Assembly: GCF_003334815.1 (NCBI RefSeq)
Contig: NZ_QOWO01000050.1
Source of the DNA: Escherichia coli
Lineage (GTDB): Bacteria; Pseudomonadota; Gammaproteobacteria; Enterobacterales; Enterobacteriaceae
Direction: 5' to 3' (one strand)
DNA length: 23,190 nucleotides
The notes beneath the pieces were generated by a model that saw only the letters and a program-made list of their open reading frames with translations, had not been told where the DNA came from and made no database searches. This document shows positions 2,258-16,616 of this stretch, in pieces. Positions within the stretch are counted from its first letter, which is position 1. Each line of letters starts with the position of its first letter. The position numbers were made by a program, and so were the translations under genes.

Positions 2258-3000
2258 CAAATGATGATGGGGGTAGGTTTAAGAAAACATTGACAGTGAG
2301 GGCCAGGGAACAAGTGGCGAAAATCGTATCAAAGAATGATCCAGATACAAAAAAAGTGTGGTGTAAATATGGTAAGATACCAGGGCAAGGGGATGGTGTA
2401 AACCTTTTTTTGTTGGTGAAATTAATGTTACGCATTATTTTATAACAAATATTGGAGCTGGATTGCCTGATGCTTGTGCAGAGTAATTGCTTGAATTAAG
2501 AGTCTATCCCATATCGAAGTCGTCAACTTCGTAGTGAGGAAAAGTAAAATTCCTGACTGAGAAAAGACATGTCGGCTATTGTGTAAAGCCATATAGCTCA
2601 GACGATGAATATCTACTCGTATTCAGTTGTTTATTGAGGGTGAGTTCCGACCCTGAAACAACAAATAAAATGAACAGTCAGAGAGTTTACATAGAATTGC
2701 ACTGGTCTTTTACGATATCTGACATTGTGTAATACATATTCAGCCATGCATTAATTAAAATGTTACGTGTTTAATGTGAGTCCCTATCTGAAAATAAATA
2801 ATCCTTCCGGATTAAAATAAATTCTTGCCGGGAAAGAAAGAGGAAATAAACCATTAGCGGAAAACCAGCGGCACGCCAGGGTGACATGCCCCAGTACGGC
2901 GGCCCGATAGTCCAGGGTTCAGCGGGGGTACTGATAGTCGCGCCGACTGCATCGAGAACTCCATACAACTTTTTACGGAACGTCACCTGATAAAATTTGT

Positions 3001-3372
3001 TCAGTATCGTCTTTTGAGATTCTCAAGGTTATGGAGTAACCAGACAGAACGGACACCACTGTCGGAGATAAAAACCCCCTGTTTACGCAGCTCGTTGCTG
3101 GCCCGGTGCTGACCATGTGTCGGGAAAGCGACGGCGTAATCAACAACAGCCTGTTCAGTTGCCTCATCGGTACGGTTCTTAAGGTTAGGAGCGCGGCGAC
3201 TACGATTAATCTGCGCATCCACACCGCCTTCAGCGACCAGTTCGCGGTAACGATAAAACGTATCACGCGAAACGCCCATGATTTTACAGGCTTTTGATAC
3301 GTAGCTGAGTTCTTCAGCCAGATTGAGCAAACCGGCTTTGTGTTTGATGACGGGATTGGCAGTATGAAGCAT
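3001..3372 (-). pseudogene. ylbG: Truncated IS481-like transposase N-terminal (HTH) fragment; no integrase/DDE domain follows
   Basis: Minus-strand ORF with ATG at 3370-3372 preceded by AAGAGGTAA (the track's GTG at 3408 lies upstream of this). Translation MGVSRDTFYRYRELVAEGG...NRSRRAPNLKNRTDEATEQAVVDYAVAFPTHGQHRASNELRKQGVFISDSGVRSVW resembles the N-terminal HTH region of IS481/IS3-like transposases. The ORF stops after ~123 aa and downstream sequence is AT-rich without a recognisable catalytic domain. Confidence 0.55.
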
Positions 3373-3487
3373 GAGAGTTACCTCTTGTTTTGGATAAGGA
3401 TTCGACACTCATATCAAAACCGGTAACTCTCAACCTTTCAAGGCCATGTGTCAGATCAAGTCGCGACTAATACAAATACGTCCCTCA

Positions 3488-4597
<1,110 letters not shown>

Positions 4598-16407: not shown

Positions 16408-16539
16408 ATGCGATTTATATCGCATAAGAGTGCAGTACTCATGCCGGATGCGGCATGAGTACCATATCCTTCCTGAAAATCGCGCAAATTCTATATATTG
16501 CAGAGATCATGTAGGCCTGATAAGCGAAGCGCATCAGGC
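16408..16539. repeat. Cluster of REP/BIME-like palindromic units in the glxK-allE convergent intergenic region
   Basis: Three palindromes by eye: ATGCGAT-TTAT-ATCGCAT (about 16408-16425); a perfect 12-bp stem GTACTCATGCCG-GATG-CGGCATGAGTAC (about 16435-16462) containing the REP-like core GCCGGATGCGGC; and GTAGGCCTGATAAGCGAAGCGCATCAGGC (16511-16539), a classical REP consensus in reverse orientation. Confidence 0.6.
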
Positions 16540-16547
16540 AATGTTAC

Positions 16548-16574
16548 AAAAAAAGCCACGGTATAAACCGTGGC
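16548..16574 (-). terminator. Rho-independent terminator for the allE-allC-allD transcript (minus strand)
   Basis: On the minus strand, hairpin GCCACGG-TTTATA-CCGTGGC is followed by seven T (plus strand shows AAAAAAA then the stem). It lies ~45 nt downstream of the allE stop. Confidence 0.6.
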
Positions 16575-16616
16575 AAAATCCAACATAGCTAAAAATAATC
16601 AGGCGAGTGGTATGAC

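What the first reader, a model, noticed from the sequence alone, without database searches (positions are those of the whole stretch)
3001..3431. IS481-like transposase N-terminal fragment marks the island/core boundary, with a 10-bp inverted repeat bracketing its start
The ylbG-like ORF encodes only the HTH part of an IS481/IS3-type transposase and stops before any catalytic domain, indicating an old, truncated insertion at the right edge of the Rhs accessory region (core gene mnmH starts at 3488). GAGAGTTACC (about 3373-3382) and its reverse complement GGTAACTCTC (about 3422-3431) flank the ribosome-binding site and start codon, which could form a hairpin occluding translation initiation or be a remnant of the element end.
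Basis: partly seen in the sequence, partly recalled or inferred. Interest (0 to 1): 0.35.

Follow-up and report, generated by a model that had tools for sequence, protein, structure and literature searches.

The report
Dead insertion-sequence remnant with its regulatory hairpin
This is the decayed left end of an IS481-family insertion sequence (the known E. coli pseudogene ylbG) sitting 13 bases from the core gene mnmH; the small inverted repeat is the base of a leader hairpin conserved in the living relatives of that element, so the finding is real but ordinary.

Summary
ORF 3372..3001 (minus strand, 123 aa) is residues 1-122 of a 346-aa IS481-family transposase: helix-turn-helix only, no catalytic domain. 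The repeat lies exactly where stated and is 11 bp perfect (3372-3382 / 3422-3432).

The anatomy is more than a truncation:
- The left terminal inverted repeat survives at 3449-3474, and core homology resumes at about 3481.
- An internal deletion removed the whole DDE region.
- A 69-bp C-terminal scrap (3016..2948) follows in another frame.
- That scrap is fused to a 32-codon Rhs gene start on the plus strand (2853-2947). The right IS end is lost.

ylbG is decaying. dN/dS is 0.83 against the nearest active copy (0.02-0.1 between well-diverged active copies), and frameshifted alleles are common in E. coli.

The repeat is not an element end. It is the outer stem of a three-tier hairpin that abuts the start codon in about 60 active relatives across Proteobacteria, with compensatory changes. 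The likeliest role, inferred and untested, is to bury the ribosome-binding site in transcripts reading in from outside. An antisense-RNA stem is a live rival: Rfam psRNA2 matches the opposite strand below its threshold. This is a known kind of IS control. Interest is low.

The parts
3449..3474 (-). Left terminal inverted repeat (IRL) of the IS, TGTATTAGTCGCGACTTGATCTGACA. The IS tip is at 3474.
   Evidence: Matches the IRL of complete copies, whose IRL and IRR pair over 26-31 nt (L001 1785-1815 / 2948-2978). Similarity to the complete IS ends at 3475.
3475..3481 (.). Seven bases between the IS tip and the point where homology to island-free genomes resumes. Probably the surviving copy of the 7-bp target duplication (inferred).
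   Evidence: Relatives make 7-bp duplications in 28 of 49 copies with both flanks. Core homology resumes at about 3481. The second copy is lost with the right end, so this cannot be tested here.
3370..3432 (-). Conserved 63-nt leader hairpin ending at the start codon.
   Evidence: Fold z = -4.9. Covariance model R1 scores 91.4 bits here. 95% of cells are paired against 42-52% in slid controls, and 7 of 23 pairs show compensatory changes.
3381..3386 (-). Shine-Dalgarno-like AAGAGG, 8 nt before the ATG. Its last two G are the first two pairs of the 3' arm of the outer stem.
   Evidence: Read from the sequence and from the fold.
3001..3372 (-). ylbG ORF: 123 codons plus stop, equal to transposase residues 1-122 plus one junction codon. 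HTH only.
   Evidence: 91% amino-acid identity to residues 1-122 of the intact 346-aa transposase.
3008..3475 (-). Left piece of the IS (IS positions 1-468).
   Evidence: 94-95.7% nucleotide identity to complete copies on E. coli and E. albertii plasmids.
3005..3016 (-). Internal deletion junction. About 460 bp of IS are missing (residues ~123-276, including the rve/DDE core). A short stretch here can be aligned to both sides.
   Evidence: The blastn and tblastn alignments of the two pieces overlap here. In the intact protein rve covers residues 162-267.
2948..3016 (-). Right scrap of the IS: transposase residues ~277-299 (KTILNKFYQVTFRKKLYG.LD) in a different frame from ylbG.
   Evidence: tblastn E 4e-8. 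Only 81-86% nucleotide identity to any copy held.
2853..2947 (+). First 32 codons of an Rhs core gene (ISGKPAARQGDMPQYGGPIVQGSAGV..., with ATT in place of ATG), fused head-on to the IS scrap. This is where the IS right end was lost.
   Evidence: 77-82% identity to the 5' ends of Rhs core genes. RefSeq marks a partial CDS at this spot in MG1655. Translation.
3413..3441 (-). Candidate native promoter (inferred only): TTGAAA (3441..3436), 17 bp, TTTGAT (3418..3413). The 5' arm of the hairpin lies in the spacer.
   Evidence: TTGAAA occurs in 49 of 61 distinct copies and TTTGAT 17 bp downstream in 57 of 61. It fails the consensus scanner because there is no A at position 2 of the second hexamer.
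3338..3365 (+). Candidate outward (antisense) promoter (inferred only): TTGTGT (3338-3343), 16 bp, CAGTAT (3360-3365). Active copies have TAGTAT.
   Evidence: Read from the hexamer counts after a 2-nt register correction, TAGTAT is present in 59 of 61 distinct copies. Synonymous variability is lowest in codons 1-10, 0.46 against about 0.85 elsewhere, especially at CAT ACT AAC and AAA CAC AAA. It fails the scanner.
3375..3474 (+). Sub-threshold match to Rfam RF02349 psRNA2 on the strand opposite the transposase. The reported match runs to 3546, but beyond the IS tip it is poorly aligned.
   Evidence: 31.1 bits, E 8e-6, gathering score 65. Relatives score 42-63.8 bits on the same relative strand.
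3488..4582 (-). mnmH (tRNA 2-selenouridine synthase), the adjacent core gene. It is co-oriented with ylbG, and its stop codon is 13 bp from the IS tip.

Best explanation
An IS481-family insertion sequence of about 1.2 kb inserted, pointing the same way as mnmH, 13 bp past the mnmH stop codon in the variable ybbP-mnmH gap. One submitter calls close relatives ISSod13. The element makes 7-bp target duplications. It then died in two steps: an internal deletion removed the catalytic region, and a second rearrangement joined what was left to the start of an Rhs gene, removing the right end.

What remains is the left terminal repeat, the 5' leader, an HTH-only ORF (ylbG) drifting neutrally, and a 69-bp out-of-frame scrap.

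In an RNA that enters the element from outside, the hairpin pairs the spacer, two bases of the Shine-Dalgarno sequence and the A of the AUG. This would keep ribosomes off the transposase start, as in IS10 'fold-back inhibition' and the IS200 5'UTR stem-loop. A transcript started at the element's own weak promoter, whose spacer holds the 5' arm, would lack that arm and be translatable.

Shown: the identity and anatomy of the relic, its decay, and the existence, conservation and covariation of the hairpin.

Inferred: the translational block, the promoter positions, and that mnmH read-through (co-oriented, with no terminator-like site found between) is what the hairpin would meet in this genome.
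For: Identity:
- NF033577 covers profile positions 2-112 of 284. Pfam finds HTH domains only.
- 91% amino-acid identity to residues 1-122 of an intact 346-aa transposase. That protein passes NF033577 at 293 bits against a cut-off of 224 and has rve/rve_3 over residues 162-326.

Anatomy:
- Terminal repeats of complete copies, and the IS end at 3474/3475.
- Internal deletion and right scrap.
- Rhs 5' fragment.
- 7-bp duplications in 28 of 49 relatives.

Boundary:
- 2905 of 5426 complete E. coli genomes carry the relic beside mnmH.
- The others show a REP-only site, a dinQ-like gene or a T6SS island, with homology resuming at about 3481.

Decay:
- 4 synonymous against 11 non-synonymous differences from the closest active copy, dN/dS 0.83, against 0.02-0.1 between well-diverged active copies.
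- Frameshifted alleles of 132 aa and others are widespread.

Hairpin:
- Fold z = -4.9.
- Every one of 56 distinct relatives folds the same way.
- Compensatory changes in the ungapped outer stem: GAGAG/CTCTC becomes GAAAG/CTTTC, GAGCG/CGCTC or GAGGG/CCCTC.
- 95% of cells paired against 42-52% in slid controls; 7 of 23 pairs and 32 cells with double changes; covariation score 0.091 against 0.044, reached by 0 of 500 shuffles.
- The 3' arm stays within 0-3 nt of the ATG while the spacer before it varies by about 13 nt.
- G-U wobbles on the sense strand number 52 cells, against 12 A-C.

Precedents:
- IS200 stem-loop sequestering the Shine-Dalgarno sequence (PMC4513863).
- ISPpu9 5'UTR (PMC8450116).
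- Tn10 protection from external promoters (Davis, Simons and Kleckner 1985, as cited in PMC2965389).
Against: - No transcript start is mapped. The candidate native promoter TTGAAA-17-TTTGAT lacks the key A of the -10 hexamer and fails the consensus scan.
- TTTGAT is also part of the inner stem, so its conservation is ambiguous.
- A hairpin is symmetrical, so covariation does not say which strand's RNA is selected. The G-U excess comes mostly from one nearly invariant pair.
- The alignment used for the pair counts was fitted to the structure.
- Rfam models this sequence on the opposite strand.
- dN/dS rests on only 15 differences.
- The right scrap is much more diverged (81-86%) than the left piece (95.7%). 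A single-element history does not obviously explain this.
Confidence: 0.7

Rival explanations
1. The conserved hairpin is mainly the stem-loop of an antisense RNA. The RNA would start at an outward promoter in the first codons of the transposase gene, read out through the left end, and pair with the 5' end of the transposase mRNA (IS10 RNA-OUT/RNA-IN, IS200 art200, IS481 Pout). This could act together with the fold-back block rather than instead of it.
For: - Rfam RF02349 psRNA2 matches the strand opposite the transposase in the window (31 bits, E 8e-6) and in every relative tested (42-63.8 bits). The match starts 3 nt from the complement of the ATG.
- Read from the hexamer counts after a 2-nt register correction, the antisense strand carries TTGTGT-16-TAGTAT, with TAGTAT in 59 of 61 distinct copies, ending 7 nt before that point.
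- The codons that encode these hexamers have the lowest synonymous variability in the gene.
- The type element IS481 has experimentally mapped Pin and Pout promoters whose transcripts overlap by 19 nt (PMC11774165).
Against: - All Rfam scores are below the gathering score of 65.
- As I recall it, without a source held here, psRNA2 was a computational prediction, so its strand may be arbitrary for a symmetrical hairpin.
- The candidate promoter has only 3 of 6 matches in its -35 hexamer and fails the scanner.
- Low synonymous variability next to a start codon also has translational explanations.
- The nearly invariant G-U pair in the apical stem would be a C-A mismatch in the antisense RNA.
Confidence: 0.3
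2. The two arms are DNA half-sites for a protein, for example the transposase HTH acting as an autorepressor or a host factor, rather than a folded nucleic acid.
For: - The arms lie between the terminal repeat and the start codon, where IS-encoded repressors often act.
- The arm sequence is almost invariant across the clade.
Against: - Where an arm changes, the partner changes to keep complementarity, while the HTH protein stays highly conserved.
- Two further nested stems between the arms also covary. Half-sites 39 bp apart would not require this.
Confidence: 0.06
3. ylbG is a domesticated stand-alone HTH regulator retained by E. coli, not a dead fragment.
For: - The ORF is intact in K-12-type genomes and more than 99% identical in about 2750 genomes.
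- Some sources name it 'DNA-binding transcriptional regulator'.
Against: - dN/dS is 0.83 against the nearest active copy, with replacements at positions invariant in the 11 closest copies aligned.
- A 132-aa frameshift allele occurs on at least 1000 contigs, and a double-frameshift allele also exists.
- Similar-sized homologues are fragments of many lengths, 115-216 aa.
- About 46% of complete E. coli genomes lack the relic.
- The ybbD-ylbG gap is used as a neutral landing pad (bioRxiv 10.1101/2020.01.04.894907).
Confidence: 0.03
4. The inverted repeat is a chance match, or a leftover of the element's terminal repeat.
For: A 10-11 bp inverted repeat within 60 nt is not rare in 23 kb: the window holds about five non-palindromic ones.
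Against: - The true terminal repeat is 3449-3474.
- The same stem is present at the same place in about 60 diverged copies, with compensatory changes.
Confidence: 0.01

Closest known systems
IS481-family insertion sequences; closest relatives are ~1.2-kb elements that one submitter labels ISSod13, on E. coli and E. albertii plasmids and across Gamma- and Betaproteobacteria
   Same: - The N-terminal HTH region is 91% identical to the intact 346-aa transposase.
- The left terminal repeat begins TGT.
- Leader and hairpin are the same.
- Nucleotide identity is 94-96% over 468 bp.
   Different: - The window copy lacks residues ~123-276 (all of rve/DDE), the C-terminus and the right terminal repeat, so it cannot move.
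- The ISfinder name could not be checked here.
E. coli K-12 pseudogene ylbG (b0502), as annotated in RefSeq
   Same: Same locus. RefSeq marks it 'helix-turn-helix domain-containing protein; incomplete; missing C-terminus' in MG1655.
   Different: The annotation does not state the IS family, the surviving terminal repeat, the internal deletion, the out-of-frame C-terminal scrap or the leader hairpin.
[quoted passage not shown]
   Same: An inverted repeat in the left end puts the ribosome-binding region into a stem. In IS10 the element's own transcript starts inside the repeat and so escapes. In IS200, disrupting the stem-loop raises tnpA expression (PMC4513863; Davis et al. 1985 as cited in PMC2965389).
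   Different: - It is a different IS family with no sequence relation.
- Here neither the start site nor any effect on translation has been measured.
- Only 2 of 6 Shine-Dalgarno bases and 1 base of the AUG are in the stem.
Pin/Pout arrangement of IS481 in Bordetella pertussis, and RNA-IN/RNA-OUT of IS10
   Same: - Same IS family as IS481.
- A candidate outward promoter in the first codons and a candidate inward promoter in the left end would give overlapping transcripts, as mapped for IS481 with a 19-nt overlap (PMC11774165).
   Different: The promoters here are predictions from conserved hexamers and fail a consensus scan. No transcript data were available.
Rfam RF02349 psRNA2 (Proteobacterial sRNA)
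   Same: The model aligns to the leader hairpin plus the left terminal repeat of this IS clade.
   Different: - The match is on the strand opposite the transposase.
- All scores are below the gathering score (31 bits in the window, at most 63.8 in relatives, against 65).
- The model runs about 75 positions beyond the IS tip into sequence that is not part of the element.

Membership tests
IS481-family insertion sequence | Transposase reaches the curated score of NCBIfam NF033577 | tested here: not met
   ylbG scores 88.4 bits against a cut-off of 224, covering profile positions 2-112 of 284 only. The intact relative L002:704-1741 scores 293 bits. The window therefore holds a fragment of a member, not a member.
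IS481-family insertion sequence | DDE catalytic core (rve domain) | tested here: not met
   Pfam finds no rve in ylbG. In the intact relative rve covers residues 162-267 and rve_3 covers 256-326. tblastn finds only residues 1-122 and about 277-299 in the window.
IS481-family insertion sequence | Two terminal inverted repeats | tested here: not met
   IRL is present at 3449-3474. IRR is absent: the IS sequence stops at 2948, where it is fused to an Rhs fragment.
IS481-family insertion sequence | Short direct target duplication flanking the element | not testable with these tools
   Relatives make 7-bp duplications in 28 of 49 copies. In the window the right junction is gone, so only one candidate copy (3475-3481) remains.
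IS leader structure that blocks translation of read-through transcripts (IS10 fold-back, IS200 stem-loop type) | A stable stem that includes ribosome-binding-site or start-codon bases | tested here: met
   An 11-bp outer stem pairs the 8-nt spacer, the last 2 Shine-Dalgarno bases and the A of the AUG. MFE is -30.5 kcal/mol, z = -4.9.
IS leader structure that blocks translation of read-through transcripts (IS10 fold-back, IS200 stem-loop type) | Structure maintained by selection (conservation with compensatory changes) | tested here: met
   95% of cells paired against 42-52% in slid controls; 7 of 23 pairs with double changes; 0 of 500 shuffles reach the covariation score. Compensations are visible in ungapped sequence. 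Caveat: the alignment was fitted to the model.
IS leader structure that blocks translation of read-through transcripts (IS10 fold-back, IS200 stem-loop type) | The element's own transcript starts inside the structure and so escapes the block | tested here: inconclusive
   The conserved TTGAAA-17-TTTGAT would place the start in the apical loop, but it fails the consensus scan. No 5'-end data were available.
IS leader structure that blocks translation of read-through transcripts (IS10 fold-back, IS200 stem-loop type) | Disrupting the stem raises translation, and restoring it lowers translation again | not testable with these tools
   This needs reporter fusions.
Antisense RNA control (IS10 RNA-OUT, IS481 Pout) | Outward promoter near the transposase start, and a detected antisense transcript | tested here: inconclusive
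   There is a candidate TTGTGT-16-TAGTAT; after a 2-nt register correction the counts give TAGTAT in 59 of 61 distinct copies. Synonymous variation is suppressed over its hexamers. Rfam psRNA2 matches this strand. No expression data were available and the promoter is below the scanner's criteria.
Rfam RF02349 psRNA2 | Score at or above the family's gathering score (65 bits) | tested here: not met
   Window 31.1-32.5 bits. The best relative scores 63.8 bits.
Stand-alone HTH transcriptional regulator | Conserved intact homologues of the same length under purifying selection | tested here: not met
   Homologues of similar size range from 115 to 216 aa and include frameshift forms. dN/dS is 0.83.

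The most novel reading that the evidence does not exclude
The hairpin belongs to an IS10-like two-RNA switch in an IS481-family clade. An outward promoter hidden in codons 3-12 would make an antisense RNA (what Rfam calls psRNA2). Its 5' stem-loop would be this hairpin, and its loop would meet the 5' end of the transposase mRNA. In E. coli K-12-type genomes the relic's outward promoter (now CAGTAT) might still fire and send an antisense transcript into the 3' end of mnmH, as IS481 Pout does to fim2 in Bordetella pertussis.
Probability: 0.2. Interest if true: 0.45.

Novelty: new member of a known kind. Interest (0 to 1): 0.2.

Why it matters
For the genome itself this matters little. It gives an exact anatomy for a known pseudogene and fixes the right edge of the rhsD island to within a few bases of the IS tip.

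The wider value is modest:
- A widespread IS481-family clade, at least 77% amino-acid identity from Escherichia to Vibrio, Acinetobacter and Nitrosomonas, carries a covarying leader hairpin over its translation start.
- The Rfam 'sRNA' family psRNA2 appears to be the left end of this insertion sequence read on the opposite strand. This would help annotators avoid calling IS ends as free-standing sRNAs.
- It gives a ready-made case for testing whether IS481-family elements use fold-back or antisense control.

Tried and rejected
- Simple N-terminal truncation: rejected. The IS resumes after a ~460-bp internal deletion for 69 bp in another frame, then meets an Rhs gene start.
- Repeat as an IS end: rejected. 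The terminal repeat is 3449-3474.
- IS3-family origin: rejected in favour of IS481, 30 against 88 bits.
- Consensus sigma-70 promoters and intrinsic terminators in 2900-3600 and in the leaders of two active copies: none relevant found.
- RNAalifold on a plain MAFFT alignment recovered only the outer stem, because indels misaligned the 3' half of the inner stems. I then built a covariance model and realigned. The first realignment was contaminated by weak reverse-strand hits and was discarded.
- A second small hairpin just 5' of the main one, holding TTGAAA, looked covarying by eye. Its folding energy is no better than that of shuffled sequence (-1.11 against -1.07 kcal/mol), so it is not claimed.
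- Literature: no paper held discusses ylbG beyond using the ybbD-ylbG gap as a landing pad. The Mahillon and Chandler review was not available. The origin of psRNA2 could not be confirmed from the papers held.
- An extension of the stem into codons 2-3, seen in the window's own fold, is not conserved in relatives.
Full report
**1. What is there**

The window is the E. coli K-12-type rhsD ... ylbG | mnmH-allS-allA region. On the minus strand an ATG at 3372-3370 opens a 123-codon ORF that stops at 3003-3001.

- Pfam sees only helix-turn-helix domains: HTH_29 at 1.3e-18, plus HTH_32, HTH_23 and HTH_28.
- NCBIfam's best model is the IS481-family transposase NF033577 (E 5.8e-25, 88.4 bits). It covers only profile positions 2-112 of 284 and lies far below the 224-bit cut-off. 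The IS3 model scores 30 bits.
- The stated repeat is exact. It is in fact an 11-bp perfect match (3372-3382 / 3422-3432), or 16 nt at 88%, with 39 nt between the arms.

**2. Comparison with intact elements**

Megablast against complete E. coli genomes found a plasmid copy annotated as an IS481-family transposase (H26). That copy and others on E. coli and E. albertii plasmids define a ~1.2-kb element. Its 26-31-nt terminal inverted repeats begin TGTATTAG...ATCTGACA.

An intact copy encodes a 346-aa protein. It passes NF033577 at 293 bits and has rve (162-267) and rve_3 (256-326) domains.

Eighty relatives with at least 77% amino-acid identity were recovered from Gamma- and Betaproteobacteria. 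Of 49 with both flanks, 28 show a perfect 7-bp target duplication, and the elements are 1194-1209 bp long. One submitter labels 87-89% identical Klebsiella fragments 'ISSod13'. I could not check ISfinder.

**3. Anatomy of the remnant**

- Window 3475..3008 matches IS positions 1-468 at 94-95.7%. The left terminal repeat therefore survives at 3449-3474.
- ylbG is residues 1-122 of the transposase at 91% identity.
- At about 3016-3005 the sequence jumps to IS position ~930. This internal deletion removes residues ~123-276, the whole catalytic core. A few bases at the junction can be aligned to both sides.
- The IS then continues for 69 bp (3016..2948; KTILNKFYQVTFRKKLYG.LD) in a different frame.
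- At 2948/2947 it is fused head-on to the first 32 codons of an Rhs core gene on the plus strand (2853-2947, start codon ATT). This is shown by 77-82% matches to the 5' ends of Rhs genes and by the RefSeq partial CDS in MG1655.
- The right terminal repeat is gone. 'Truncated' is therefore right in effect, but the history is an internal deletion plus loss of the right end.
- One oddity remains. The right scrap is only 81-86% identical to any copy held, against 95.7% for the left piece. It may come from a second, more distant copy, or the sample may be too short to judge.

**4. The boundary**

- 2905 of 5426 complete E. coli genomes carry the remnant next to mnmH.
- In the rest the ybbP-mnmH gap holds only REP-like sequence (ATCC 25922), a dinQ-like toxin gene (EC19) or a T6SS Hcp/DUF2931 island (CUVET17-1136).
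- Homology between all of these and the window resumes at about 3481, seven bases from the IS tip at 3474.
- Those seven bases are the right length for the surviving copy of the target duplication, but this is inference.
- The remnant therefore does mark the island/core edge.

**5. Dead or domesticated?**

- Against the closest active copy, ylbG has 4 synonymous and 11 non-synonymous differences (dN/dS 0.83). Well-diverged active copies compared with each other give 0.02-0.1.
- Several ylbG replacements hit positions invariant in the 11 closest copies aligned.
- A 132-aa frameshift allele is found on at least 1000 contigs, and another allele has a double frameshift. Similar-sized homologues range from 115 to 216 aa.
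The counts are small, but everything points to neutral decay.

**6. The inverted repeat**

It lies inside the element, 17 nt in from the terminal repeat, so it is not an element end.

- As RNA, the 91 nt around it fold at -30.5 kcal/mol (z = -4.9).
- The 3' arm always ends 0-3 nt before the ATG. The A-rich, Shine-Dalgarno-bearing spacer before it varies by about 13 nt.
- Compensatory changes are visible in ungapped sequence. GAGAG/CTCTC becomes GAAAG/CTTTC in Acinetobacter and Moraxella, GAGCG/CGCTC in a Methylotenera copy and GAGGG/CCCTC in Alkanindiges. The inner stem changes to CTTTGATT/AATCAAAG in Vibrio and to GGTTTAG/CTAAACC in Undibacterium.
- On an alignment made with a covariance model, 95% of cells pair against 42-52% when partners are slid. 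Seven of 23 pairs and 32 cells carry changes on both sides. No shuffle of 500 reaches the covariation score. That alignment is fitted to the structure, which inflates the paired percentage; the outer-stem cases do not depend on it.
- The relic's own copy is slightly degraded, at -25.4 against about -30 kcal/mol in active enteric copies.

**7. How it most likely works**

The stem pairs the 8-nt spacer, the last two Shine-Dalgarno bases and the A of the AUG. This is the arrangement described for other insertion sequences:

- The IS200 5'UTR stem-loop sequesters the Shine-Dalgarno sequence (PMC4513863).
- Weakening the ISPpu9 5'UTR structure raised a translational fusion 26-fold (PMC8450116).
- Tn10/IS10 protects itself from external promoters (Davis, Simons and Kleckner 1985, cited in PMC2965389).

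In those systems, transcripts entering from outside contain both arms and are not translated.

Here a near-invariant TTGAAA lies 17 bp upstream of a near-invariant TTTGAT (49 and 57 of 61 distinct copies), with the 5' arm in the spacer. If this is the native promoter, its transcript would start in the apical loop, lack the 5' arm and be translatable. That step is inference. The -10 candidate lacks the key A, it doubles as the inner stem, and the consensus scanner finds nothing.

In this genome mnmH is co-oriented with ylbG. It ends 13 bp before the IS tip, about 115 bp before the ylbG ATG, and no terminator-like site lies between. Read-through from mnmH is thus the 'outside' transcript the hairpin would meet. 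This too is inference.

**8. The live rival**

Rfam RF02349 (psRNA2) matches the opposite strand. It starts 3 nt from the complement of the ATG and runs through the hairpin and the terminal repeat. It scores 31 bits in the window and 42-63.8 bits in relatives, all below the gathering score of 65.

- Read from the hexamer counts after correcting my extraction register by 2 nt, that strand carries TTGTGT-16-TAGTAT. TAGTAT is present in 59 of 61 distinct copies and is CAGTAT in the relic.
- These hexamers are encoded by codons 10-12 and 3-5. Those are the codons with almost no synonymous variation, and codons 1-10 score 0.46 against about 0.85 elsewhere.
- The type element IS481 has mapped Pin and Pout promoters with overlapping transcripts (PMC11774165).
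- The hairpin may therefore be, or also be, the stem-loop of an RNA-OUT-like antisense RNA.
- Weak evidence favours the sense strand: 52 G-U cells against 12 A-C, mostly from one pair.
- I cannot separate the two readings with these tools, and they are not exclusive. IS200 uses both.

**9. Verdict**

The object is a known pseudogene, and its IS origin is ordinary. The hairpin is a real, selected structure of the parent element and a new example of a well-known kind of IS self-restraint. The apparent identity of Rfam psRNA2 with this IS end is a useful annotation note. Interest is low.

Noticed in passing
window 2853-2947 (+): The first 32 codons of an Rhs core gene, with its upstream AG-rich ribosome-binding region and ATT in place of ATG, fused head-on to the IS scrap. 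This is a third Rhs-derived piece besides the rhsD C-terminus (26-898) and the orphan at 1306-2016.
   Followed up: partly
window 16476-16518 and 16544-16610 (+): Two Rfam matches at gathering score: ES036 (CssrF) sRNA at 38.1 bits and STnc480 at 87.6 bits.
   Followed up: no
window 3375-3546 (+); L067 409-598 (-), L040 422-598 (-) and others: Rfam RF02349 psRNA2 appears to be the left end (leader hairpin plus terminal repeat) of this IS481-family clade, modelled on the strand opposite the transposase. It scores 42-63.8 bits in relatives, just under the 65-bit gathering score.
   Followed up: partly
ybbP-mnmH gap: window ~3475-3487; L006 3868-4007, L007 3292-4002, L008 1-3979: The gap downstream of mnmH is a variable hotspot in E. 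coli. It holds REP-only sequence, a dinQ-like type I toxin, a T6SS Hcp/DUF2931 island, or the rhsD island with the IS relic.
   Followed up: partly
window ~3060-3075 (run of G and T in ylbG); proteins P0089, P0030: A very common E. coli allele of ylbG is frameshifted after ...RKQGV and reads on for 132 aa through the K-12 stop (at least 1000 contigs). Another allele carries a double frameshift.
   Followed up: partly
window 3439-3474 and 2701-2804: A 36-bp stretch holding only the terminal repeat matches at 100% elsewhere in strain MRSN346647 (H30). Window 2701-2804 matches at 95% an unannotated place in strain 1428 (H29).
   Followed up: no
window 2948-3016 (-): The right IS scrap is 81-86% identical to every copy held, while the left piece is 95.7% identical to its best match. 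The two pieces may come from different IS copies.
   Followed up: partly
transposase codons 301-340 of the relatives (L009-L088): Synonymous variability also drops near the 3' end of the transposase gene, to 0.59-0.74 against about 0.85. This hints at an overlapping constraint near the right terminal repeat.
   Followed up: no
L040 1759-2238 (-): One Pseudoalteromonas copy sits just beside the 5S and 23S end of an rRNA operon.
   Followed up: no
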